Positions 2,140-56,655 of a DNA stretch of 64,000 bases are shown here, piece after piece; within the stretch, counting starts at the first letter, position 1, and every line of letters begins with the position of its first letter. The notes beneath the pieces are model-generated. The model ran no database searches. It saw only the letters and a list, made by a program, of their open reading frames with translations, and had not been told where the DNA came from. Source of the stretch: a virus. The position numbers and the translations under genes were made by a program. Location of the stretch: positions 32,001 through 96,000 of IMG/VR virus record IMGVR_UViG_3300045988_147517; one strand, given 5' to 3'.

Positions 2140-5100
2140 TAATCACACCCACTATAGCCGCAATCATCGTTAATGCAATGACCGCAACCACCTTCCGCAA
2201 CATAGGTTCTCTGTCCACATTTTGGACAAATTCCTAAATTGCTATTCTCCACTTCATTCTTTAGGTTTGTAACACCGCTAAGGAAATCTGTCAATTCTTT
2301 CATAGTGTTCTGTTCTTCACAAGTTTTACAGCGCGGCTCTGGGATATCAAAAACTCTAGAAACCGCTTCATTCACAATCTCTTCTTCACTATAATCATCA
2401 TCAATCAACTCTTCTTTGATTTGATTTGCCATCTCTTGCAATGCGATTCCCACTGCGGCAGGACAGCAATTCCCCGGCGAAACATCATGTTTAGTCGCCC
2501 TTCGCACCATATAACTAACGCAACCCGGGCAACTCTTTGCTTGGTCTACAATTCCCTCTACTGTTCCACCAAGGCGCATCGCATAAGAAATCATGCGAGA
2601 GCCAAATACCATCCAAGAATTACAGCCGCCCTCTGAGCCTTTGCTTAAAAATGTTTCGCAAAGTTCGCCATCTACTGGGTCAAAGAAAGCTGTTGTGTGT
2701 AAAGAGCCACACCCAGTAACAAGTTTGTGTTTTCTTCCCACAACATCGTCATAAACTTGAACCACATCACCTCGATTAAGTACCTGTAGAGGACGGGTTT
2801 CTTCTTTTGGCGGCTCTTCTTCTTGGTTGTTCACAAGGACACCAGCCCGGTCACAGCCATCTCTATAAACTGTAATGCCTTTAAGGCCTTGTTTCCACGC
2901 CTCATAGTATAATTCAAATACATCTTTAACTGTGGTATATTCAGGGAGATTTACTGTAGAACTAATTGATGCATCGATATGTTTTTGCCAAGCCGCCTGC
3001 ATAGCAATACGTTCTTTATACGGAATCATTGGCGCTGTTACAAACCAACTAGGTAAATCCGCTTCATTATCAATATTATTTTCCTGCATATATTCTTCTA
3101 CAATTGGAGTATATACTTTATACCAATACTCTTGACCATGAAGTGATTCTGTTTTTCTCATATAAGAATTGGCGAAAATGGGTTCCATCCCACCGGATAC
3201 ACCTAGCATTGTGCTAGTACTGCCCGTTGGGGCCACAGTCAACAGTTGCAAATTTCTCAACCCATATTTACGAATATCTTCATATAATTTGTCTGTTACA
3301 TGTGAATTTAAGAAAGGAGAATCTAGCACCGCGCCAGAAAACCTCGGGGCTGGGCCGAATTCTTTTGCTAACTCCATAGATGATTCGAGAGCGCATGAAA
3401 CGATGAATTCACCAATATTATCAGCTAATTTTAAAGACTCCTCACTTCCGTATCTTATTTTCAATTTAATCAGTAAGTCAGCCCATCCCATAACTCCTAG
3501 GCCGATTTGCCTGTAATTTCTTACACTTTCACGTTGATATTCTAGGGGGTGTAATTCCAACCCTTCATCTAAAACTTCATTCAAATAAATTACTGCATTT
3601 TTGACAGTAAATTTCAAAGAATCCCAATCAACTTTTCCATCTTTTTCAAATTGCGCCAAGTTAATTGAGCCAAGTAAACAACTACCTCCTTCTGGTAATG
3701 GTTCTTCTGCACCTTACCACACATAGTTTCCTATGCCATCTAATATAGATGTTGTAGTCTGGACTATATCATCCGTTATTTTATAAAAATAACAGGTGGG
3801 CGCTGGACAATAAATTGCCACTTAGTCTCTGAACCTTCCCCTGTTCGGGGCTTGGATGCTGATTGCCCAATCCATACATTTTTTAACATTCACGCCTAGA
3901 TTTATTTCATTCTTACGTTGTAGTATGTATGGCTCTAAGGGGTTTCCAGCAGTTCACCCACTTTTAAATCCGCATACACTTTACGGATTAACCCCACCAT
4001 ATTGAAAATCAGGGTCTTCACTTAATAAATTATAGTCATTAATTCTATCCCAGAATAATAATCCGGGTTCAGCCTGCCGCCAATTCATCTCTGCTAAACG
4101 CATAAATACATCTTGAGCATTAATTACTTTGGTAATTTCTTCTCCTGTCTCTTGACGATAATATTTTAATGTATATTCTTCATCATTGATAACAGCATTC
4201 ATAAATTCATCTGTTACTTTAATTGAGATATTTGCCTTAGTAACTTTTCCAGCCTCCGATTTTAAATCAATAAAATCTTCAAGGTCTGGATGGCTACAAT
4301 CAAGGCTAATCATCAATGCCCCCAATATGGACTATCTCTTACCACTAATCTAGTGGCTCGGGCGCTAATGTAGTCTTATTGTTATCCTCAACTACTAGTC
4401 TCTGCACGTCCTATATACCTTTTACATTATATAGTTTCGCTCAGGGTTCTTGGGTCTTCCCTGAATTCACCCAATTCAAGACGCAGGGCATTAGCTTTGT
4501 TATACTTTCTATATAATACAATAAATGAATCGTTAGGATATATATAATCTAAAAATTTTAAAACATCTTTTTTGCTAGAAAATCCTAATATAAAACAATC
4601 TTCTTTTCCTTTTGGCTTTATCTTAGATGATACTCCAACCTCATCTATTAAAACATTCTGAACACCTTCTAATAAACGGTATTGAGAAGTAAATGAAATT
4701 CTTTGCCATATCCTATTTCTGTCTTTCCTTCTTCCCCAAGTAATACACCCATCTCCATCAAAAAACCCAAGAATTAAATATCTTTTAAGGTCTTTTCTTA
4801 CAATTGGCAAATGACGGCTGTTCTTTTTTCCACCATATTTATTAATATCTGTAAGTATATTTTTATTATATATTGTATATCTTGCTCTTGGGAACCTCCT
4901 AGATTCCCTATCTAAGTATGTGGTTTCATGAACATTTCCACCAATAATTTGAGATATATAATATAGTATTTCTTTATCAGCTAATGAAACAGATAACTCA
5001 ACACACTTATCTCCAATGTATCCATCCGCTAATATAAATCCTAAGATATATGCTTTTTCTGGGGTATCAATCTTATTAAACATGTATTCATTTTTATACT

Positions 5101-5735
5101 CAACAGGTTTATTTTTTATTAAATGTTTTAAATTAAGTTTACCTATCCAATATAAAACAGTGGTGTAGCATAATCCAACTTTTTTTCCTATTTCCCTACT
5201 AGACATTCCATCTTCTAAATATCCTTTTAATTCATTATATTCCATATATTATCTCCTACTCTATATATTTTCGGTGATTAAATTAAGCTATTTTACGTCT
5301 TCCATTCTGAGCAATTAATTCGCTAACTAATGAATACAAATCGCAAAAACTAACTGAGCCGCTTGTTGTTTTGGCCGCATTATTTACCTTAGCGCCACTA
5401 GGAGCAAGTTTACTAATGTCTACACCACAACCGCCGCCATAACTGAACGTTCTTGCCAAATCTCGCGCACAGTCAAAGATACTTTCAATATTATCTTCTG
5501 GCGCTTTGACTACATAACAATTTCCATATGTCAGTTTTTTAATATGTCCTAGACCTCTATTAGCAAGAATTCTACCTCCTGATAGAAATTTCTGTTCTTC
5601 AATAAGTTTTTCAATAATCTTATTATTTCCTGCTACACGTTTTTTCCATTCTTCAAAAGTTTCATTTTCATCTCGATATTTGTTTTTCCAAATATCTCTT
5701 CCGATTTCTGTGCTAATCCATTGTTCTAATTCCAA
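2139..5735 (-). CDS. ribonucleotide reductase, probably adenosylcobalamin-dependent (class II-like), in three exons: 5735-5295, 4322-3983, 3712-2139
   Basis: Exon 1 ends ..GGGCGVDISKLAPSGAKV..TSGSVSFCDLY..IAQNGRR and exon 2 starts GALMISLDCSHPDLEDFIDLK, restoring the RRGA motif. Exon 2 ends GGVNP plus t, and exon 3 starts gt-AEEPLPEGGSCLLGSINL, restoring NPC-AE. TVYRDGCDR and a Cys-rich C-terminus are present. Exon lengths 441+340+1574 sum to 2355 nt, which is in frame. Confidence 0.8.
3713..3982 (-). mobile_element. group I intron (ORF-less, about 270 nt) in the RNR gene
   Basis: There is a stop codon directly after exon 2. P1 is formed by exon ATCCGT pairing with internal guide GCGGAT 9 nt downstream, with U.G at the splice site. 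Core elements CAGAGACTAAG and GATGATATAGTCC are present and the intron ends in G. Confidence 0.75.
4323..5294 (-). mobile_element. group I intron carrying a LAGLIDADG homing endonuclease gene, in the RNR gene
   Basis: It interrupts RR|GA of the RNR. The 3' part contains GCAGAGACTAG and AAGAGATAGTCC core elements and ends in ..ATATTG. I could not find a convincing P1, so boundaries are accurate to a few nt only. Confidence 0.7.
4427..5245 (-). CDS. LAGLIDADG homing endonuclease (double motif) with N-terminal HTH
   Basis: Contains the motifs LGFILADGYI and LGFFDGDGCI, and lies inside the RNR intron. Confidence 0.85.
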   Translation of the reverse strand: MEYNELKGYLEDGMSSREIGKKVGLCYTTVLYWIGKLNLKHLIKNKPVEYKNEYMFNKIDTPEKAYILGFILADGYIGDKCVELSVSLADKEILYYISQIIGGNVHETTYLDRESRRFPRARYTIYNKNILTDINKYGGKKNSRHLPIVRKDLKRYLILGFFDGDGCITWGRRKDRNRIWQRISFTSQYRLLEGVQNVLIDEVGVSSKIKPKGKEDCFILGFSSKKDVLKFLDYIYPNDSFIVLYRKYNKANALRLELGEFREDPRTLSETI

Positions 5736-14944: not shown

Positions 14945-15083
14945 CTTACCATTAAACTTTCTAATACTTCATTCTTTATAATGTCGTAAAGCATATCTTG
15001 TGCTACTTTTTCCATAATTGAATTATTCCCATTAATATCTAAATCCATCGCTTGTTTTAGATAATAAGACAAAGGCTCCCCTT

Positions 15084-15163
15084 ATTTAGGCACATTTTCA
15101 CGCTTCTCGCTCAAGCACTACAATAAGTACAGTATCAACGAGCTATCCCCGTCCTAACAGCGG
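15084..15163 (-). ncRNA. TnpB-associated guide-scaffold RNA (omega-RNA-like), orphan copy A
   Basis: Minus-sense CCGCUGUUAGGACGGGGAUAGCUCGUUGAU-[ACUGUA CUUAU UGUAGU]-GCUUGAGCGAGAAGCGUGAAAAUGUGCCUAAAU. It is homologous to the RNA directly downstream of tnpB and has no ORF. Confidence 0.7.
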
Positions 15164-15300
15164 TTCTTGCTAACGATTTGTCAATCTTTGATTAACTCCT
15201 TTTCTCTCTGGGAATCAAATTCAAAATCCTCATTCGATTCTGGTATTTCATAAGGGTCATGGTCATAGCACCACATACAACCATCACATTCCTTTGTTCC

Positions 15301-17707: not shown

Positions 17708-17785
17708 ATTAAATATAATTCATGTTAACTTTAAACAATGGTAAAAGTCAATCAAATTTAAATACATTCTAATTTAAACACAGAT
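17708..17785 (-). repeat. two degenerate copies of the CRISPR-like repeat downstream of scaffold copy B
   Basis: Plus-strand 17756-17785 ATTTAAATACATTCTAATTTAAACACAGAT and 17708-17737 ATTAAATATAATTCATGTTAACTTTAAACA, compared with the consensus ATTTAAATACATCTCATGTTAAACACAAAC. Confidence 0.5.
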
Positions 17786-17850
17786 TCAACGCTTCTCGCT
17801 CAATAACCTTACGGTTAAGTATCAACGAGCTAACCCCGGTTTAACCTCGG
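17772..17850 (-). ncRNA. TnpB-associated guide-scaffold RNA, orphan copy B, with its own promoter
   Basis: Minus-sense CCGAGGUUAAACCGGGGUUAGCUCGUUGAUAC-[UUAACC GUAA GGUUA]-UUGAGCGAGAAGCGUUGAAUCUGUGUUUAAAU. It starts about 7 nt after a perfect -10 box. Confidence 0.7.
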
Positions 17851-17857
17851 TTCTTTG

Positions 17858-17886
17858 ATTATAACATATAATTTTTGTTATGTCAA
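17858..17886 (-). promoter_or_regulatory. consensus promoter driving scaffold copy B
   Basis: TTGACA (17886-17881), exactly 17 nt, TATAAT (17863-17858). No ORF lies between it and the RNA. Confidence 0.7.
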
Positions 17887-18264: not shown

Positions 18265-18492
18265 ATTCAAATACATCTCGTGTTAAACACAAACTTTGGC
18301 ACTTGATGTCTATTTTTTCTGGAAATTAAAATTTAAATGCATCTCATGTTAAACACAAACCCCGGCATCTATTACCGGAGACAAACAAATAGTAAGATTT
18401 AAATACATCTCATGTTAAACACAAACCCTAATCGTCTATATCTGCGCCTTTTAGAATATCTAATTTAAATACATCTCATGTTAAACACAAAC
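18265..18492 (-). CRISPR. CRISPR-like mini-array: 4 x 30-nt repeats, 3 x 36-nt spacers
   Basis: Repeats are at 18265-18294 (2 mismatches), 18331-18360 (1 mismatch), 18397-18426 and 18463-18492, with an exact 66-nt period. In crRNA sense the repeat is GTTTGTGTTTAACATGAGATGTATTTAAAT, containing the hairpin ACAU-GAG-AUGU. The spacers are unique. Confidence 0.75.
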
Positions 18493-18513
18493 TATAGTAT
18501 TTATCTCATTCTC

Positions 18514-18591
18514 ATTACGCTAACATTTGATGCTTCTCACTCGATAGTCTAATGACTAAGCATAAATGAGCTATCCCCGGTTTAACCTCGG
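18514..18591 (-). ncRNA. guide-scaffold RNA (omega-RNA / tracr-like), copy C, immediately 3' of tnpB
   Basis: It begins 11 nt after the tnpB stop: CCGAGGUUAAACCGGGGAUAGCUCAUUUAUGCU-[UAGUC AUUA GACUA]-UCGAGUGAGAAGCAUCAAAUGUUAGCGUAAU. The 3' boundary is uncertain. Confidence 0.7.
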
Positions 18592-18602
18592 TTGGTGGTA
18601 AG

Positions 18603-19751
18603 TTAATTTACCAGCCGCTTTCCTTCTTTTAGAATATTTTTAGCGGCATTTATATCCCTATCCTCTTTGTAGCCACAAACCGGGCATACAAAGGTTTTTT
18701 CGGATAAAATATTCTCTTCTATTACATGTTCACACTTATGGCACGTCTTTGAGCTTGGGAAAAATGTATTTACTTGTACATATTTATGGCCATATTCTTC
18801 TGCTTTATACGCTAACATTTGGCAGAAATTAAAGTACCCTATATCGGTAATAGCAGAATTAAAATTTTTCTTTGTTCTATTTAAAAACCCTTCTTTCTCT
18901 TTATTCTGTTTCATCATTTCTTGCAATTTAAGTTTCTCAACCGCAATAATTTTATTATCTCTCGCAATCTTCCTACTCAAATTATGTGCGAAATATGCTC
19001 TTTGTCTAGCAATTTTCTGATGAACTTTCGCTACTTTAATACGTTGTTTTTCGTAATTTTTACTACCACGTTGACAATGACTTAATTTGCGTTGCTCTCT
19101 GGCTAAACGTTCTTTGCTTTTCTTATAGTAGTTAGGATAATCTGGAATACTTCCTTTATTATCCACAAAGTAATCTCGTGATGAAAAATCAAGCCCGATG
19201 GATTGGGATTTCCCTTTCTTCTGTTTCATTTTAAATTCAATGCAGAAGGCAATATAGTATTCCCCTGATGGTGTCCTAGAAAGTGTTGCATCACATATTT
19301 TTGCATCATCTGGAATTGGCCTATCAACAATCATTTTGACGGTTGTTGACAATTTTGGAATTTTAACTCTATTACCTTCAATACGCAACCCATTACCGCC
19401 AACTGTATTTCTCGTTTTAAAGCTATCCCTACATCTACCACGCTTCTTAAATTTAGGAAATCCGGGCTTTTCCCCATTTTTTAATCTTCTAAAAAAGTTT
19501 TTATACGCCTGTTCTAAATCCCGCTGAACAAAATTTAAGGCATGTGCATCCACTTCTTTTAACCAAGTATTATCTGCTTTATATGAAGCGTAGCTCGTCT
19601 TTAATGACTTCCCCGTCTCTTCATAATGCTTTATTTTGTCAGCAAGCATAGCATTCCAAATCCATCTGCAAGCGCCAAATGTTTTATTTAAATATTCTCT
19701 CTGTTCTTTATTTGGGTAGATACGATATTTATAACCTCTAACTACTAACAT
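18603..19751 (-). CDS. tnpB: TnpB-like RNA-guided RuvC nuclease (IS200/IS605 OrfB family), stand-alone
   Basis: Contains YKYRIYPNKEQ, RuvC-I IGLDFS, RuvC-II IAVEKL, the zinc ribbon CHKCEH..CPVCGY and RuvC-III DRDINAAKNI. The protein is 382 aa. Confidence 0.9.
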   Translation of the reverse strand: MLVVRGYKYRIYPNKEQREYLNKTFGACRWIWNAMLADKIKHYEETGKSLKTSYASYKADNTWLKEVDAHALNFVQRDLEQAYKNFFRRLKNGEKPGFPKFKKRGRCRDSFKTRNTVGGNGLRIEGNRVKIPKLSTTVKMIVDRPIPDDAKICDATLSRTPSGEYYIAFCIEFKMKQKKGKSQSIGLDFSSRDYFVDNKGSIPDYPNYYKKSKERLAREQRKLSHCQRGSKNYEKQRIKVAKVHQKIARQRAYFAHNLSRKIARDNKIIAVEKLKLQEMMKQNKEKEGFLNRTKKNFNSAITDIGYFNFCQMLAYKAEEYGHKYVQVNTFFPSSKTCHKCEHVIEENILSEKTFVCPVCGYKEDRDINAAKNILKEGKRLVN

Positions 19752-19779
19752 TTTCTTACCTCATCAACTTTATGTCTAT

Positions 19780-19808
19780 ATTATATCATGTTGGCGCTTA
19801 CTTGTCAA
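19780..19808 (-). promoter_or_regulatory. consensus promoter of tnpB
   Basis: TTGACA (19808-19803), 17 nt (containing GCGCCAA, as in other promoters in this window), TATAAT (19785-19780). Confidence 0.7.
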
Positions 19809-20236
19809 CCATTTTTAAAAAAATTTTTTATTTTTTCTTTCTTCTCATTGCACTGTTTACTTTCATAGCCGTTACAACTATACCTATTATCACAATCTTT
19901 GCACATATTTATAATAGTATACACCGCTTCTTCTTTTGTAGTCGGGAAATCTATTTCAAAATCTTCTGGTGGCGTGTAGATACTATCGTCCTCACTCTCA
20001 TATTTTTCTTTTATTCTTTGCTTCTCTTCCTTCGGCAAACTCAATACTTCATCCCGCACTCTCTTAAAAATTCTTTCATTATCCACTGATAGATTCTGGC
20101 GCGATTTTTCTTCATTTTTCTGAGCAATCATCTCTTCTAACAACTTATCTCGCTCTTCCTCTGGAAGGGATTCTATAATCGGAACCAACCAATTTTCGAC
20201 AAACTCTTTCATAGTCATTACACAATCTTTACTCAT
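19805..20236 (-). CDS. hypothetical acidic protein
   Basis: 143-aa ORF with AAGGAG RBS. It is not a transposase. Confidence 0.5.
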   Translation of the reverse strand: MSKDCVMTMKEFVENWLVPIIESLPEEERDKLLEEMIAQKNEEKSRQNLSVDNERIFKRVRDEVLSLPKEEKQRIKEKYESEDDSIYTPPEDFEIDFPTTKEEAVYTIINMCKDCDNRYSCNGYESKQCNEKKEKIKNFFKNG

Positions 20237-25597: not shown

Positions 25598-25776
25598 TCT
25601 TCAACCTCCAACTCTTCTTCAAAAACGTCTTCTCTATATTCTATAATTTCCATCATTCGTTCTTCAAGCCACTCTAATTCTTCTACGTTTTTACATTTAT
25701 CAAATAAGTCATCAACAAATAATTCAAAACCAAAACTATCTAAACCTAATCTTCCACTCTCATCTCTTCCCAGCAT
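25588..25776 (-). CDS. hypothetical acidic protein
   Basis: 62-aa ORF with AGGAGG RBS. Confidence 0.45.
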   Translation of the reverse strand: MLGRDESGRLGLDSFGFELFVDDLFDKCKNVEELEWLEERMMEIIEYREDVFEEELEVEECS

Positions 25777-25952
25777 CTTTCAACCTCCTGATAAAGTTCT
25801 CCTAAATTTTCTGGTACCTCTTCTGCATTATTTAAAGACTCCTCATACCATTCCCAATTATCCACGCCGCCATATTTTAAAGATAATAACTCAGCTTCTC
25901 TCTCAAGCAATAACCGCAATTCTTTTTCTACAATAATATATTCTTTACTCAT
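25746..25952 (-). CDS. hypothetical protein
   Basis: 68-aa ORF. Confidence 0.45.
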   Translation of the reverse strand: MSKEYIIVEKELRLLLEREAELLSLKYGGVDNWEWYEESLNNAEEVPENLGELYQEVERCWEEMRVED

Positions 25953-28406: not shown

Positions 28407-28625
28407 TTAATCCCTCATAAGCCTTTTAATATCTCTTACATTCAAACTCAATACTATATTCACATTATCAGGCGGATTCATATTATTTACAAACCGCTTC
28501 AAACACCCAGTCGAACAAAAATAATGGCCGTGCGACCGCACCCCGTTATTGGAGATTTCTTGAATCGTCAACTGAATCATATTACAGGTACAACCCGCTT
28601 CTCCACTACAAAACTCACACTTCAT
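28407..28625 (-). CDS. small Cys-rich protein
   Basis: Start placed at ATG 28625, 9 nt after AAGGAG. Confidence 0.5.
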   Translation of the reverse strand: MKCEFCSGEAGCTCNMIQLTIQEISNNGVRSHGHYFCSTGCLKRFVNNMNPPDNVNIVLSLNVRDIKRLMRD

Positions 28626-28637
28626 AATATTCACTCC

Positions 28638-28727
28638 TTAGTTAATTAAAATACCGCCAACATATTCAATATATTCGTATGCCGCCTTTGGCGATTCCAC
28701 AACATCATTTTTGCCAATCGTTTCCCA
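28638..28727 (-). pseudogene. orphaned ancestral 3' end of the upstream gene (diverged duplicate of 28826-28915)
   Basis: Ungapped hand alignment gives 68 of 90 nt identical to the real 3' end. It translates as WETIGKNDVVESPKAAYEYIEYVGGILIN*, against WDAIAKDDVIESPEKAYEYIETVGGILIN*. It retains the original stop, RBS and junction to the next gene. Confidence 0.75.
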
Positions 28728-28825: not shown

Positions 28826-29248
28826 TTAATTGATTAATATGCCGCCAACAGTTTCAATATACTCATAGGCTTTTTCAGGCGATTCTATAACATCATCTTT
28901 AGCAATCGCATCCCAAGAATATTTACCCGCATATCGGGTAAAAGCCTTTTGAAAATCAACACCTTTTTTATTTTTATACAATACAATTTCATCCCACATT
29001 CTTTGACTACTCACCACAATATTATCATGCGCCATGTTTACTATTGTATTCGGCCCCATAACTCTATACCCTTTAACGTCATGCGGGATTGTCCCAATGC
29101 CATGGCAATAATGACAAACACTTTGTAAAAGGGGGTATCCCGCTTTTAAACCACGAGCATACCCCTTACCACCACATTTCGGGCAACATACTTCATCTAC
29201 GCGAAACGTTCCTTCTTTAATATAATATACTTCGTCTCCTAGTTCCAA
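28826..29248 (-). CDS. DnaJ-type zinc-finger (CxxCxGxG) protein
   Basis: Contains CPKCGGKGY and CHYCHGIGT. Probable TTG start behind AAGGAGGG. Confidence 0.55.
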   Translation of the reverse strand: MELGDEVYYIKEGTFRVDEVCCPKCGGKGYARGLKAGYPLLQSVCHYCHGIGTIPHDVKGYRVMGPNTIVNMAHDNIVVSSQRMWDEIVLYKNKKGVDFQKAFTRYAGKYSWDAIAKDDVIESPEKAYEYIETVGGILIN

Positions 29249-38794: not shown

Positions 38795-39082
38795 TTAGAC
38801 ATTTTCGATACAATAATAGTAACGTTCAATTTCAATATAACCATATTCTTCAAGTGTTTCACAAAAATTTAAATACCGCCATCTTTTATAATCGTCATAA
38901 TCATAAAAACCATTTGCGCCATATTCATCAATGTAATCGTGATATTCTTCTACTAAACAATAGCTCTCATTGCAATAGTCAAGAATGTCTCCATAGAAGT
39001 TTTCTTTACTTAATTCAATTTTTTCTAACGTTTCTTTATCCTGCCGATAACACTTTAATTCTTGTGATTTTTTCATTTTCAT
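38795..39082 (-). CDS. hypothetical early protein
   Basis: 95-aa ORF with the conserved leader AAATGAGGT. Confidence 0.5.
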   Translation of the reverse strand: MKMKKSQELKCYRQDKETLEKIELSKENFYGDILDYCNESYCLVEEYHDYIDEYGANGFYDYDDYKRWRYLNFCETLEEYGYIEIERYYYCIENV

Positions 39083-39150
39083 AACCTCATTTCATTTCTT
39101 ATTATGGTTATATTATACACCATATATATTTACTTGTCAAGCGTTTTTTT

Positions 39151-39429
39151 TTAATCTTTTAACAATTTTATATAATCTTTAATGGTTTTTAGCTGAATAA
39201 ATAAGTAAAATGGTGTAGAGGAGGGCTTATTTCTTCTAATACTCTTTAAAAATTCATATCCTACACCTGTAATTTCAGATAATTCCATCAAAGTATAATA
39301 TTCAAAAACAGCACTAAAATATTCTTTTGCATTTTTTTTATTTTCTTCCCATTCTTTCTTCAATGCAGATATCTTTTCAATATCCGCAATCATTTCACCC
39401 ATAACAATTTCCTTGTCTAAATTATTCAT
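39151..39429 (-). CDS. hypothetical protein, possible HTH
   Basis: Start moved to MNNLDK behind GGAGG. LSEITGVGYEFLKSIRR looks HTH-like. Confidence 0.45.
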   Translation of the reverse strand: MNNLDKEIVMGEMIADIEKISALKKEWEENKKNAKEYFSAVFEYYTLMELSEITGVGYEFLKSIRRNKPSSTPFYLFIQLKTIKDYIKLLKD

Positions 39430-39925
39430 TCCACGAACCTCCAATAAATTTATCAATCAATGTATATATTTCCATTCCAAAAACTTCTTTTATACTATCA
39501 GGAAGCTCCATTCCTGAGTTAATACAGTCTAAAAAATCGCTATTATCAGACAAATAGATTTCTAACAACTTTAGGTCTATGTTATCTTCACGTACAGCGA
39601 ATGAGATATCTATTCCAATTTCCTCCTCAATTTTTTCTGGAATTGAAACCCATTCATCATAAAATGGTTTGGTTTTGGCGCTTTCAAATTCCTTATTTAA
39701 ATTTATGTCTGAGATATTTTTATCAAATTCTGATATGAATTTCTCGCATTCTTTAACAGTTTTTGCCTTACCAATGATAGCGCCATTAGCACATAATATG
39801 ATATTGTAATCTTTTTTATTTTTATAATATCCATATACCGTAGAATTATAAATGGTTTTCCAGCCATCAATTACCGCTAAATATAGAGGTTTTTGGATTA
39901 CTAGTTTTTCTCTTGTTCTTCTCAT
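39422..39925 (-). CDS. hypothetical protein
   Basis: 167-aa ORF. Confidence 0.5.
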   Translation of the reverse strand: MRRTREKLVIQKPLYLAVIDGWKTIYNSTVYGYYKNKKDYNIILCANGAIIGKAKTVKECEKFISEFDKNISDINLNKEFESAKTKPFYDEWVSIPEKIEEEIGIDISFAVREDNIDLKLLEIYLSDNSDFLDCINSGMELPDSIKEVFGMEIYTLIDKFIGGSWNE

Positions 39926-40504: not shown

Positions 40505-40855
40505 TCACAAAAACTTTTTTTCTATATTAAAATTAGAATTATTCATACGGAATGAACTTGTTCTACCCATATATTTAACACATTCATGAAATTCTTTGCC
40601 AAATTGTTCTTCACACCATTCGTTAAGGCAATAAAAGTTATCTTCACAAAATACATCGAAATTATCTTTTAGAATATCATCTGTTAATATTTCTTTAATA
40701 TTTTCAGGTATGTTTAAATCACTTTTATTACAAAAGGCACAATCATATAATTTTAAATTTGTATATTTATGAAATGCTTCGTTGCTTAAATATTTTTCCA
40801 ATGAATCTAATATTTCATTTGCTTTTTGAATTTTTTCACTAATTTTCATCTTCAT
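40505..40855 (-). CDS. hypothetical early protein
   Basis: 116-aa ORF with the leader AACGAGGT. Confidence 0.5.
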   Translation of the reverse strand: MKMKISEKIQKANEILDSLEKYLSNEAFHKYTNLKLYDCAFCNKSDLNIPENIKEILTDDILKDNFDVFCEDNFYCLNEWCEEQFGKEFHECVKYMGRTSSFRMNNSNFNIEKKFL

Positions 40856-40935
40856 AACCTCGTTTCATTTGTTATTATGTGTATATTATACACCATGTAC
40901 TTTTGCTTGTCAAGTATTTTTTTTTATTTTTTTTT

Positions 40936-56381: not shown

Positions 56382-56455
56382 GCCACTATAGCATAACGGT
56401 AGTGCGAATGATTTGTAATCATTTTATCGGGGTTCGACTCCTCGTAGTGGCTCCA
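56382..56455 (+). tRNA. tRNA-Thr (anticodon UGU)
   Basis: Acceptor GCCACTA/TAGTGGC, anticodon arm AATGA-TTTGTAA-TCATT, T arm CGGGG-TTCGACT-CCTCG, encoded CCA. Confidence 0.85.
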
Positions 56456-56472
56456 TTTTATAATCAAACCAA

Positions 56473-56550
56473 CCGTTGTTAGGACGGGGATAGCTCGTTG
56501 ACACTTAACCATAAGGTTATTGAGCGAGAAGTACGTTAGTATGCCTAAAT
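56473..56550 (+). ncRNA. TnpB-associated guide-scaffold RNA, orphan copy E (plus strand)
   Basis: CCGUUGUUAGGACGGGGAUAGCUCGUUGACAC-[UUAACC AUAA GGUUA]-UUGAGCGAGAAGUACGUUAGUAUGCCUAAAU. It starts 17 nt after the tRNA-Thr CCA end, in the same orientation as local transcription. Confidence 0.7.
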
Positions 56551-56655
56551 ATAAAAAAGTTTTTGGCATGTCTCCGATTGGGCGCGAACAGCAAAGTATT
56601 GATTTTTTAGAGAAAAAATTAAAGCGCTCAGAGAATTATTGAAAGAGGTACACAC

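What the first reader, a model, noticed from the sequence alone, without database searches (positions are those of the whole stretch)
18265..18492. Loop-tail pseudoknot covaries across the scaffold copies, and the CRISPR-like repeat mimics the scaffold 3' end (split tracr/crRNA-like design)
In copies A, D and E the 5' hairpin loop is GUUAGGA and the 3' tail just before the presumed guide is CCUAAAU, so CCUAA can pair with UUAGG.

In copy B the loop is GGUUAAACC and the tail is GUUUAAAU, so GUUUAA can pair with UUAAAC.

Two base pairs therefore change together (C:G to U:A, twice) in 4 of 4 cis cases.

Copy C, next to tnpB, has the UUAAAC loop but no matching tail of its own. The matching sequence is supplied by every array repeat. 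Each repeat's 3' end is hairpin ACAU-GAG-AUGU, then A, UUUAA, AU, then the spacer. This has the same architecture as copy D: hairpin GUAC-AUUA-GUAC, then A, CCUAA, AU, then the guide.

This suggests the repeats are detached 3' modules of the scaffold. They would complete the pseudoknot in trans, so that scaffold C acts like a tracrRNA. TnpB and Cas12 guide RNAs are known to contain a pseudoknot next to the guide.
Basis: partly seen in the sequence, partly recalled or inferred. Interest (0 to 1): 0.85.

Follow-up and report, generated by a model that had tools for sequence, protein, structure and literature searches.

The report
Phage TnpB with split guide-RNA array
A phage carries a very small (382 aa) TnpB RNA-guided nuclease whose guide RNA occurs both as whole single-guide genes and as a scaffold plus a short CRISPR-like array, a natural example of the known "TranC" step between transposon nucleases and CRISPR-Cas12.

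Summary
Window 18265-18492 (minus strand) holds four 30-nt repeats at a 66-nt period with three unrelated 36-nt spacers. They lie directly downstream of an intact 382-aa tnpB and an omega-RNA scaffold (copy C). A covariance model finds exactly five scaffold copies in the window.

The loop-tail pseudoknot holds across the family. In 68 distinct scaffolds all five pairs show double changes, 88.5% of cells pair, and shifted registers give at most 54%. It corresponds to the pseudoknot solved in ISDra2 TnpB RNA.

Every repeat ends in UUUAA-AU, in the family register and complementary to the UUAAAC loop of copies B and C.

Copy C does have a tail, which repeat 1 supplies in cis. The palindrome in the repeat more likely pairs with an anti-repeat in scaffold C (GCAUCAAAUGUUAG) to form stem 4 than folds on itself.

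The tnpB-scaffold-linker-array layout recurs in three TnpB lineages with entirely different spacers. A sibling phage carries an orphan array, and a guide matching this window 20/20.

Best reading: a TranC-like functionally split guide RNA used in phage-phage conflict. Use of the repeats in trans is inferred, not shown. The principle was published in 2025, so this is a new variant, not a new kind.

The parts
19780..19808 (-). Promoter of the tnpB-scaffold-array operon (TTGACA-17-TATAAT with a TG extension)
   Evidence: 12/12 consensus match. The same promoter and leader lie upstream of tnpB in L027, and upstream of the orphan array in L010.
18603..19751 (-). tnpB, 382 aa, predicted active RNA-guided nuclease
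   Evidence: Pfam HTH_OrfB_IS605 + OrfB_IS605 + Cas12f1-like TNB. Full-length alignment to ISDra2 TnpB 8H1J (E 6.5e-58) with the RuvC D-E-D and CxxC..CxxC motifs kept. Closest relatives are 96% and 72% identical; all others are 46% or less.
18534..18593 (-). Scaffold copy C: 5' hairpin with pseudoknot loop AGGUUAAAC, plus two-part stem 2
   Evidence: CM hit of 67.9 bits. Structure supported by compensatory changes.
18520..18533 (-). Proposed anti-repeat GCAUCAAAUGUUAG (5' strand of stem 4)
   Evidence: Pairs with UUAACAUGAGAUGU of the repeat at -12.1 kcal/mol, and -9.5 to -13.0 in three other lineages. Predicted by RNAalifold and by the MFE fold. Inferred, not proven.
18493..18519 (-). Linker (apical loop of cis stem 4) with conserved motif G(A/G)GAUAAAUACU
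   Evidence: Conserved at its ends in the window, L010 (both sites), L025 and L027. Its function is unexplained.
18265..18492 (-). CRISPR-like mini-array: 4 repeats of 30 nt and 3 spacers of 36 nt. Each repeat is GUUUGUGU + stem-4 3' strand + A + UUUAA + AU
   Evidence: Homologous arrays with unrelated spacers follow tnpB in L025/L026 and L027.
17858..17886 (-). Dedicated promoter of scaffold B (TTGACA-17-TATAAT, TG)
   Evidence: 12/12 match. The -10 box ends 5 nt before AACCG, so transcription should start at the scaffold 5' end.
17772..17852 (-). Scaffold copy B, unsplit: loop UUAAAC, tail GUUUAA-AU
   Evidence: CM hit of 75.9 bits. Its 3' module is about 16/20 identical to copy A's by my own hand count, apart from the CC-to-UU change.
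17708..17771 (-). Remnant mini-array after B: half-repeat UAGAAUGUAUUUAAAU, a 19-nt spacer, and a degenerate terminal repeat
   Evidence: Families D3 and D9. The same position in sibling phages (L010, L014) holds a C-type scaffold + linker + 3 repeats.
15084..15165 (-). Scaffold copy A, unsplit single-guide RNA gene: loop UUAGG, tail CCUAA-AU; guide starts at 15083
   Evidence: CM hit of 76.8 bits. The same copy and guide occur in two sibling phage contigs.
28728..28804 (-). Scaffold copy D, unsplit: loop UUAGG, tail CCUAA-AU; guide starts at 28727
   Evidence: CM hit of 62.7 bits.
28638..28727 (-). Guide D plus a displaced old copy of the 3' end of the upstream 140-aa gene
   Evidence: A 91-nt diverged duplicate begins at the scaffold/guide junction, score 94 against shuffles of 25 +/- 4. 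Guide D matches the sibling-phage allele 17/20 and the window's own working allele 15/20.
56471..56550 (+). Scaffold copy E, unsplit: loop UUAGG, tail CCUAA-AU; guide starts at 56551. It sits directly after a tRNA gene
   Evidence: CM hit of 74.8 bits; tRNA at 56382-56452; TATAAT at 56459-56464.
28567..28586 (-). Protospacer in this window for a guide carried by sibling phage IMGVR_UViG_3300045988_118521
   Evidence: 20/20 match to the L148 guide TGTAATATGATTCAGTTGAC. That phage's own allele has two mismatches, both synonymous on my reading of the codons.

Best explanation
The feature is a mini CRISPR-like array that belongs to a TnpB-sized nuclease resident in a phage. It is a natural case of a functionally split omega/right-end RNA, the TranC-like design.

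Shown:
- An intact tnpB, an omega-RNA scaffold and the array lie in one operon.
- Each repeat ends with the family's pseudoknot strand, in the family's register, and it is complementary to the loop of scaffolds B and C.
- The arrangement is conserved in three TnpB lineages, while the spacers turn over completely.

Inferred:
- Scaffold C supplies two docking sites: the 5' hairpin loop UUAAA, and an anti-repeat GCAUCAAAUGUUAG.
- Each repeat supplies the partners: UUAACAUGAGAUGU (the 3' strand of stem 4), then A, then UUUAA (the pseudoknot), then AU, then the guide.
- With repeat 1 the contacts form in cis. The 27-nt linker is the apical loop, giving an ordinary single-molecule guide RNA carrying spacer 1.
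- For repeats 2-4 the same contacts must form in trans, as they must for orphan arrays in sibling phages. The scaffold then acts as a tracrRNA and the repeat-spacer units act as crRNAs.
- Copies A, B, D and E are unsplit single-guide genes served by the same nuclease. A, D and E use a different pseudoknot code (UUAGG:CCUAA), which would keep them from pairing with array repeats.
- The likely biological role is conflict between related phages, as allele-specific cutting, exclusion or homing. This rests on two guides in this phage group that match the sibling's allele better than the carrier's own.
For: Anatomy and count.

Active TnpB.

Pseudoknot covariation across 68 distinct scaffolds. Stems 1 and 2 covary. 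Position equals the solved ISDra2 pseudoknot: PMC10097598.

Arrays follow a scaffold only in the UUAAAC-loop class, plus L106 where loop GGCAC matches repeat tail GUGUC.

tnpB-scaffold-linker-array is conserved with unrelated spacers in L025/L026 (72% TnpB identity) and L027 (96%); L024 (72%) ends inside the scaffold.

Anti-repeat:repeat duplex of -9.5 to -13 kcal/mol in four lineages, against 0.0 for the local hairpins. It is predicted by RNAalifold with one compensatory pair, and by the MFE fold.

A sibling phage has an array at the same site with no scaffold or tnpB next to it.

A guide in that phage (L148) matches this window 20/20, while its own allele differs by two changes that I read as synonymous. 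Window guide D matches the sibling allele 17/20 against 15/20 for its own.

tnpB sits at the same syntenic locus in diverged phages.

No transposase or cas1/cas2 in 15.3-31.4 kb.

The concept is published as TranC, and as the pseudoknot between tracrRNA and the repeat 3' end.
Against: There are no RNA-seq, processing or binding data.

The loop-tail contact is only five A-U pairs (-0.3 kcal/mol).

Within the array-bearing lineages the loop and tail never vary. There is therefore no covariation for the trans contact itself, only inheritance and the single L106 parallel.

The anti-repeat duplex energy is reached by 4.3% of shuffled repeats, and non-cognate pairs score similarly. That contact has only one compensatory pair, seen in 2 of 5 L025 repeats.

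No protospacer was found for the window's own spacers in INPHARED, IMG/VR (first 20 nt of spacers 1 and 2) or the 1.7 Mb of held loci. No TAM could be derived.

The sibling phage with orphan arrays shows no tnpB at this site, so its arrays could be decaying remnants.

How spacers are acquired without Cas1-Cas2 is unknown.
Confidence: 0.6

Rival explanations
1. Each repeat folds its own small hairpin (ACAU-GAG-AUGU), like stem 4 of copy D. It docks to scaffold C only through the 5-bp loop-tail pseudoknot, with no anti-repeat duplex.
For: The repeat has the same linear order as copies A, D and E: short palindrome, one nucleotide, pseudoknot strand, AU. The three loop positions of the palindrome vary freely among 17 repeats while its arms are conserved. 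That pattern fits a hairpin, and it fits a duplex with an internal loop equally well.
Against: The triloop hairpin is predicted unfolded (0.0 kcal/mol). The pseudoknot alone gives -0.3 kcal/mol. Scaffold C keeps a matching palindrome plus UUAG, which extends complementarity into the repeat's UUAA outside the palindrome. L106 repeats are plainly the 3' strand of a long stem 4.
Confidence: 0.15
2. Cis only. Scaffold C + linker + repeat 1 + spacer 1 is an ordinary, rather long omega-RNA. Repeats 2-4 are non-functional duplications of the transposon right end, or spare units that work only after recombination moves them next to the scaffold.
For: The cis fold is complete and is the predicted MFE. 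The thermodynamic support for trans pairing is modest. No targets were found for spacers 2 and 3. Spacer 2 contains a terminator-like hairpin that could stop transcription inside the array.
Against: Slippage cannot produce spacers that are unrelated in sequence yet constant in length (34-38 nt), and that are fully replaced between phages whose TnpB is 96% identical. Repeats stay conserved through 4-5 units in three lineages. An orphan array persists without a cis scaffold.
Confidence: 0.12
3. tnpB plus scaffold C is simply an IS200/IS605-type insertion whose omega-RNA guide is the flanking DNA (TTAGCGTAATGAG...). The neighbouring repeats belong to something else, such as a host-Cas-dependent viral mini-array or a regulatory repeat.
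For: A sibling phage lacks exactly tnpB + scaffold between ...AAAGTTGAT and TTAG... TTGAT is, from my own knowledge, the ISDra2 TAM. The scaffold belongs to an abundant IS-borne family in Clostridia.
Against: No TnpA or recombinase lies within about 12 kb. tnpB keeps the same promoter-leader and the same syntenic position in phages whose neighbouring proteins are only 27-83% identical, which points to deletion in the sibling rather than insertion here. The repeats share the scaffold's tail and stem-4 strand and occur only with this scaffold class. The B/C-type scaffold is absent from 185,579 species genomes.
Confidence: 0.06

Closest known systems
TranC (transposon-CRISPR intermediates; Jin et al., Cell 2025, cited in bioRxiv 10.64898/2026.03.27.714800 and PMC13565253). 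Examples include LaTranC (PDB 9JFO) and the phage-borne CauTranC9
   Same: A TnpB-derived RuvC nuclease sits next to a short CRISPR array, and the right-end/omega RNA is functionally split into a tracr-like scaffold and repeat-spacer crRNAs. From my recollection of the Cell abstract, TranCs are reported to use both reRNA and CRISPR RNA. No adaptation genes are found nearby. CauTranC9 is also phage-encoded, TnpB-sized, lacks the ISDra2 C-terminal domain, and has spacers against phages.
   Different: The protein is 382 aa, below the 414-aa mean of the smallest reported clade. It aligns full-length to ISDra2 TnpB, but only over the C-terminal RuvC to LaTranC. Repeats are 30 nt, against 32-38 reported. 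One genome also carries four promoter-equipped or orphan unsplit guide genes, three of them with a different pseudoknot code, plus a second scaffold with a remnant array. Clade membership could not be tested because no TranC sequences were available.
ISDra2 TnpB-omega RNA (IS200/IS605 OMEGA system; PDB 8H1J/8EXA)
   Same: The proteins are homologous over their full length with the catalytic triad kept. The guide RNA has a 5' hairpin, stems, and a pseudoknot formed by the nucleotides just upstream of the guide. The order guide, pseudoknot, stem 4 is the same.
   Different: The scaffold is shorter, about 80 nt against 116, and lies outside the ORF. No TnpA or transposon ends were found. The gene is at a fixed syntenic phage locus. 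The 3' module is multiplied into an array.
Cas12f and other tracrRNA-dependent type V systems, including phage-borne Cas12 'hacker' (bioRxiv 10.1101/2025.01.20.633832)
   Same: The 3' end of the repeat forms a pseudoknot (R:AR-1) with the 5' part of the tracrRNA, and a second repeat:anti-repeat duplex lies next to it.
   Different: Those effectors are larger (400-700 aa) with expanded REC/WED domains or dimerisation. Here the effector is an unexpanded TnpB, and unsplit guides coexist with the array.
Virus-borne mini-CRISPR arrays used in conflicts between viruses (Medvedeva et al. 2019, recalled from my own knowledge; related review PMC11656645 surfaced but was not read)
   Same: Very short arrays sit in viral genomes, with spacers aimed at close relatives of the carrier virus.
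   Different: Those arrays borrow the host's Cas proteins. Here the phage encodes its own nuclease and scaffold.
Intronless homing and marker exclusion by free-standing phage homing endonucleases (e.g. T4 SegF), and TnpB-driven non-restorative homing (PMC13565253)
   Same: A sibling's allele is cut, while the carrier's own allele differs at the target site. The cassette sits beside the target gene.
   Different: Specificity would come from a guide RNA gene located far from the nuclease gene. Cutting and homing have not been demonstrated.

Membership tests
IS200/IS605 TnpB-omega RNA (OMEGA) | TnpB protein with HTH, RuvC (D-E-D) and zinc-ribbon domains | tested here: met
   Pfam PF12323, PF01385 and PF07282. 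Alignment to 8H1J at E 6.5e-58 with D, E, D and CxxC..CxxC conserved.
IS200/IS605 TnpB-omega RNA (OMEGA) | Structured guide-RNA scaffold at the 3' end of tnpB, with a pseudoknot next to the guide | tested here: met
   CM hit of 67.9 bits starting 10 nt after the stop codon. Stems covary and the pseudoknot covaries.
IS200/IS605 TnpB-omega RNA (OMEGA) | Part of a mobile element: TnpA or transposon ends present, multiple identical copies, guide equals the flank of the insertion | tested here: not met
   No Y1 or serine transposase in 15.3-31.4 kb. There is a single tnpB. The locus is the same in diverged phages. Left- and right-end hairpins were not searched for specifically.
TranC / nascent type V CRISPR | TnpB-derived nuclease adjacent to a repeat-spacer array | tested here: met
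   Four repeats and three spacers begin 111 nt after the tnpB stop. The same layout is found in L025, L026 and L027.
TranC / nascent type V CRISPR | Spacers vary between relatives while the repeats are conserved | tested here: met
   17 repeats from four lineages share GUUU..UUAACAU...AUGYAUUUAAAY. No spacer of the array next to tnpB is shared between the window, L025 and L027. One spacer of the separate B-locus array is shared by L027 and the two sibling contigs.
TranC / nascent type V CRISPR | Guide RNA functionally split into a tracrRNA and crRNAs that pair by repeat:anti-repeat and pseudoknot | tested here: inconclusive
   Complementarity is in the right register, and orphan arrays exist. 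There are no transcript or binding data, and no covariation within the split lineages.
TranC / nascent type V CRISPR | Phylogenetic placement in a published TranC clade | not testable with these tools
   Only LaTranC is in the PDB, and it matches over the C-terminal 150 residues only (E 7e-18). The supplementary sequences of the TranC papers are not held.
Canonical adaptive CRISPR-Cas | Adaptation module (cas1/cas2) near the array | tested here: not met
   None among the ORFs from 15.3 to 31.4 kb. The rest of the window was not scanned.
Rfam-curated RNA families | Scaffold reaches the gathering score of a described family | tested here: not met
   Only a group I intron and three tRNAs were reported for the window.

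The most novel reading that the evidence does not exclude
One 382-aa phage TnpB is served by a distributed set of guide loci: an array, an array remnant, and three orphan single-guide genes with their own pseudoknot code.

Together these would act as an RNA-guided allele-exclusion or homing network among sibling phages. Each guide matches the rival's allele, while the carrier's own allele is recoded. At locus D the cassette even brings a replacement 3' end for the gene it interrupts, which would make it a natural analogue of a recoded gene drive.

The arrays gain spacers without Cas1-Cas2.
Probability: 0.3. Interest if true: 0.8.

Novelty: new variant of a known kind. Interest (0 to 1): 0.6.

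Why it matters
The step from transposon TnpB to CRISPR-Cas12 is thought to have been a split of the guide RNA, and TranC systems were published in 2025 as the intermediates.

This phage group displays several stages side by side:
- whole single-guide genes;
- a scaffold whose first repeat still completes it in cis;
- further repeats that must act in trans;
- orphan arrays in a sibling phage;
- presence or absence of the nuclease gene among near-identical phages.

The nuclease is no larger than an ordinary TnpB. That makes three open questions directly testable in one small system:
- whether a pseudoknot plus a short anti-repeat is enough for trans guide loading;
- how spacers are gained without Cas1-Cas2;
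- whether such systems serve phage-phage competition.

A 382-aa nuclease with an RNA scaffold of about 80 nt is also of practical interest for genome editing.

Tried and rejected
Database searches that found nothing useful:
- Rfam has no family for the scaffold.
- INPHARED holds no related phage, and no target for six spacers beyond chance 24/26 matches.
- Exact IMG/VR scans found nothing for the repeat or for the first 20 nt of spacers 1 and 2. Guide A matched only the two sibling contigs that already carry copy A.
- The GTDB scan for the B/C-type scaffold found nothing.
- Tandem Repeats Finder does not report the array. This is expected, because the spacers differ.

TAM. The only two protospacer flanks (..TGTACC and ..TATTCT) are too few to define a motif.

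Loop pairing with the 5' part of the repeat. In the window GUUUAAC pairs 7 bp with the loop (-7.1 kcal/mol). This is rejected as the conserved contact, because other lineages have AUAUAAC, AAUUAAC or GAUUAAC there (-3.3 to -3.5).

Linker as anti-repeat. UAAAUAC pairs with GUAUUUA at about -5 kcal/mol. It is less favoured because it overlaps the pseudoknot strand and shows no variation. The conserved linker motif remains unexplained.

IS insertion at TTGAT|TTAG. This is judged less likely than deletion in the sibling, because of the shared promoter-leader and the synteny.

Flank duplications were tested for all five copies. Only D has one.

The weak 17/20 similarity of spacer 3 to window 39648 is within chance expectation.

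A full-window scan for cas and transposase genes was not completed. Only 15.3-31.4 kb was scanned.
Full report
**What is there**

Genes in this part of the window run on the minus strand. ORF 18603-19751 encodes a 382-aa protein with the three TnpB domains. It aligns end to end with ISDra2 TnpB (PDB 8H1J, E 6.5e-58). The RuvC Asp-Glu-Asp triad and the zinc-ribbon cysteines are kept, so it is predicted to be an active nuclease. A perfect TTGACA-17-TATAAT promoter precedes it.

It is followed by a 27-nt linker and then by the reported feature. That feature is four 30-nt repeats (GUUUGUGUUUAACAUGAGAUGUAUUUAAAU) at a 66-nt period, separated by three unrelated 36-nt spacers. The next ORF's ribosome-binding site follows the last repeat, so the array lies inside an operon.

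**The scaffold copies**

I built a covariance model from 35 family members. Searched without filters, it finds exactly five copies in the 64 kb:
- A at 15165-15084
- B at 17852-17772
- C at 18593-18520
- D at 28804-28728
- E at 56471-56550 (plus strand)

They score 63-77 bits, and the next hit scores 12 bits. Only C is next to tnpB. B has its own perfect promoter, placed so that transcription would start at the scaffold's first base. E follows a tRNA gene and has a TATAAT box 6 nt upstream.

**The scaffold family**

The scaffold belongs to a large omega-RNA family. The genome hits are mostly Ruminococcus, Lachnospiraceae and Oscillospiraceae MAGs, often at contig ends as expected for IS copies. 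RNAalifold gives a 5' hairpin and a two-part stem 2. Nine of the 15 pairs show compensatory changes.

**The pseudoknot**

I took the 5' hairpin, and separately the last 12 nt before the conserved right end. The right end was located without reference to the loop, using the stem-4 hairpin and the terminal CAC/AAU motif. This gave a gap-free alignment of 68 distinct combinations.

The five loop positions before the closing pair pair with tail positions -7 to -3. 88.5% of cells form standard pairs, and every pair shows changes on both sides. Examples are GACA/UGUC, GAAC/GUUC, GACG/CGUC, GGAU/AUCC, UUAGG/CCUAA and UUAAA/UUUAA. The covariation score is 0.447 against 0.136 in shuffles (0 of 500). 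Sliding the partner by 1-3 columns gives 34-54% pairing.

This is the position of the pseudoknot solved in ISDra2 omega-RNA, where nt -6..-2 pair with -102..-106 (PMC10097598). It is a general and already known property of TnpB guide RNAs. The window's copies stand out only for their A/U-rich codes and their very short stem 4.

**The repeats as 3' modules**

Every repeat ends ...AUGUAUUUAAAU. UUUAA occupies the family's pseudoknot register, two nucleotides before the spacer, and is complementary to the UUAAA of the B/C loop. Given about 33% each of A and T, a fixed-position 5-mer match has a probability near 0.004 (my own estimate).

All 17 full repeats recovered from four lineages keep AUUUAAA(U/C), and all cognate scaffolds keep the GGUUAAACC loop.

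Among 244 scaffolds, arrays follow the scaffold only in this loop class, with one exception. A metagenome contig (L106) has loop GGCAC, and its 29-nt repeat is the 3' strand of its long stem 4 plus the tail GUGUC-AC, present 2.5 times with 33-34-nt spacers. In both lineages the repeat carries the strand that matches its own scaffold's loop.

First, copy C is not tailless. C + linker + repeat 1 folds as a complete omega-RNA, both in the single-sequence MFE and in the four-lineage consensus. In that fold GCAUC/AAUGUUA of the scaffold pairs with UAACAU/GAUGU of repeat 1. The linker is the apical loop and the pseudoknot strand follows directly.

Second, the small palindrome in the repeat is not predicted to fold on itself (0.0 kcal/mol). 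The scaffold:repeat duplex gives -12.1 kcal/mol here, and -9.5 to -13.0 kcal/mol in the other lineages.

The repeat therefore looks like the 3' strand of stem 4 plus the pseudoknot strand. This is the split point predicted from the ISDra2 structure and reported for TranC.

This part is weaker than the pseudoknot evidence:
- 4.3% of shuffled repeats reach the same duplex energy.
- Non-cognate pairs score similarly.
- Only one pair is compensatory (G.U to U:A in L025), and only in two of its five repeats.

**Conservation and turnover**

The closest TnpB relatives are 96% (L027) and 72% (L024, L025/L026) identical. Everything else is 46% or less. L025/L026 and L027 show tnpB, the same scaffold, a linker with the conserved motif GGGAUAAAUACU, and arrays of three to five or more repeats. 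L024 ends inside the scaffold. No spacer of the array next to tnpB is shared between these lineages.

The L024 and L025 contigs are collinear with window 29.2-18.6 kb. Their neighbouring proteins are 27-83% identical to the window's. tnpB is therefore a resident, vertically inherited phage gene rather than a recent insertion.

ORFs from 15.3 to 31.4 kb contain no transposase, recombinase or Cas1/Cas2/Cas4. The B/C-type scaffold is absent from 185,579 species genomes.

**Sibling phages**

Two IMG/VR contigs (3300045988_118521 and _129962) are close relatives of the window phage and carry copies A, B and E.

In 118521 the tnpB promoter and leader run straight into the linker and a 2-3-repeat array. 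tnpB and the scaffold are missing. At B's position there is a promoter, a C-type scaffold with anti-repeat, the linker and three repeats. That phage thus has an array with no scaffold in cis. Such an array either needs a scaffold in trans or is a remnant.

The window's own B locus is a reduced version. It has an unsplit scaffold whose 3' module is nearly identical to A's except for the covarying CC-to-UU change. This is followed by half a repeat, a 19-nt spacer and a degenerate terminal repeat.

**What the guides aim at**

Only copy D has a flank duplication. A 91-nt diverged copy of the 3' end of the upstream 140-aa gene begins exactly at the scaffold/guide junction, with score 94 against 25 +/- 4 for shuffles. 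Guide D is therefore an old allele of that gene.

In 118521 the working gene has that old-type allele. It matches guide D 17/20 with the first eight positions intact, whereas the window's working allele matches 15/20.

Conversely, the D locus of 118521 carries an extra 5'-truncated scaffold module ending AUUUAA-AU. Its guide, TGTAATATGATTCAGTTGAC, matches this window 20/20 inside the neighbouring 75-aa gene (28586-28567). Its own allele has two differences, and its 5' flank also differs. On my reading of the codons both differences are synonymous.

This reciprocal pattern suggests allele-specific targeting between sibling phages. Cutting, a TAM and homing are not shown.

No targets were found for the window's three array spacers.

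**Comparison with what is known**

The principle is published. TranC systems are TnpB-derived nucleases with arrays and a functionally split right-end RNA (cited). Cas12 tracrRNAs form a pseudoknot with the repeat's 3' end. A phage-borne, TnpB-sized CauTranC9 with anti-phage spacers has been described, though no tracrRNA structure was reported for its clade.

The present protein is closer to ISDra2 TnpB than to LaTranC. I could not test whether it belongs to a published TranC clade.

What I did not find described is the multi-locus layout in one genome, supported by relatives that show loss of the nuclease and complete spacer turnover:
- three orphan unsplit guide genes with a second pseudoknot code;
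- a second scaffold with its own promoter;
- a cis-complete first repeat.

**Verdict**

It needs two corrections. Trans action remains an inference. I file this as a new variant of a known kind, with interest 0.6.

Noticed in passing
window 28638-28727 versus 28826-28915 (minus strand): The 3' end of the 140-aa gene is present twice in diverged form. The working copy encodes ..WDAIAKDD..ETVGGILIN. The displaced copy encodes WETIGKND..EYVGGILIN and starts exactly where guide D starts. It looks like a guide cassette that brought its own replacement gene end.
   Followed up: partly
L148:2062-2081 (IMGVR_UViG_3300045988_118521) and window 28567-28586: A sibling phage's guide matches this window 20/20 inside the 75-aa gene. 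The sibling's own allele has two differences (synonymous on my reading of the codons) and a different 5' flank. That guide follows a 5'-truncated scaffold module (TTGAGTAGGAAG-TGCGTTAGCA-T-ATTTAA-AT) placed after its copy D.
   Followed up: partly
L010:395-640 / L149 (IMGVR_UViG_3300045988_118521): A near-identical phage lacks tnpB and scaffold C precisely between ...AAAGTTGAT and TTAG... It keeps the promoter, the linker and a 2-3-repeat array. L027 (TnpB 96% identical) has tnpB at this site and shares a B-array spacer with the tnpB-less phages.
   Followed up: partly
L106:1100-1340 (metagenome contig ODAI010824055.1): An independent nascent array lies next to an ordinary-size TnpB of the same RNA family. 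The repeat TGTAAAGCCTATGCGCGCGTGGGTGTCAC is the stem-4 3' strand plus the pseudoknot tail. It is present 2.5 times with 33-34-nt spacers.
   Followed up: partly
window 18496-18507 (minus strand): The linker motif G(A/G)GAUAAAUACU is conserved in all lineages, including the orphan array, although the model treats the linker as an apical loop. Its function is unexplained; it could be a processing or protein-binding site.
   Followed up: partly
window 18360-18380 (minus strand): Spacer 2 plus the start of repeat 3 forms a terminator-like hairpin (CUCCGG..CCGGGG followed by UUUGUGUUU). It could end transcription inside the array.
   Followed up: no
window 15037-15056 (minus) and about 56586-56605 (plus): Degenerate repeat-like sequences lie 27 nt after the tail of copy A (AACAAGCGATGGATTTAGAT, 17/20 to the repeat) and about 35 nt after the tail of copy E. 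The single-guide loci may therefore be one-spacer arrays with decayed terminal repeats. The match for A is near chance level.
   Followed up: no
window 3739-4020 (minus) and ORF 4427-5245 (minus): A group I intron (Rfam, 67.6 bits) and a LAGLIDADG-type endonuclease ORF lie between ORFs that, by eye only, resemble ribonucleotide reductase fragments. This phage would then also carry classical homing elements.
   Followed up: no
window 25746-25952 (minus): A 68-aa ORF matches the T7 gp5.9 RecBCD-inhibitor family (E 4.6e-08). This is relevant if the phage makes or suffers double-strand breaks.
   Followed up: no
window 34-42 kb, e.g. 39070-39160 and 40843-40933: There are families of about 60-90-nt direct repeats that read as TTGACA...TATAAT promoters on the minus strand (repeat finder families D1, D2, D4). 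They are probably the phage's own promoter set, and the tnpB promoter (19770-19832) belongs to family D2.
   Followed up: no
window 39629-39648 (minus strand): The first 20 nt of array spacer 3 match a window gene 17/20 (..DEWVSIPEKIEEEIG..), and the spacer would encode a similar peptide (FPEKID). This may be chance, or the spacer may come from a diverged homologue in another phage.
   Followed up: no
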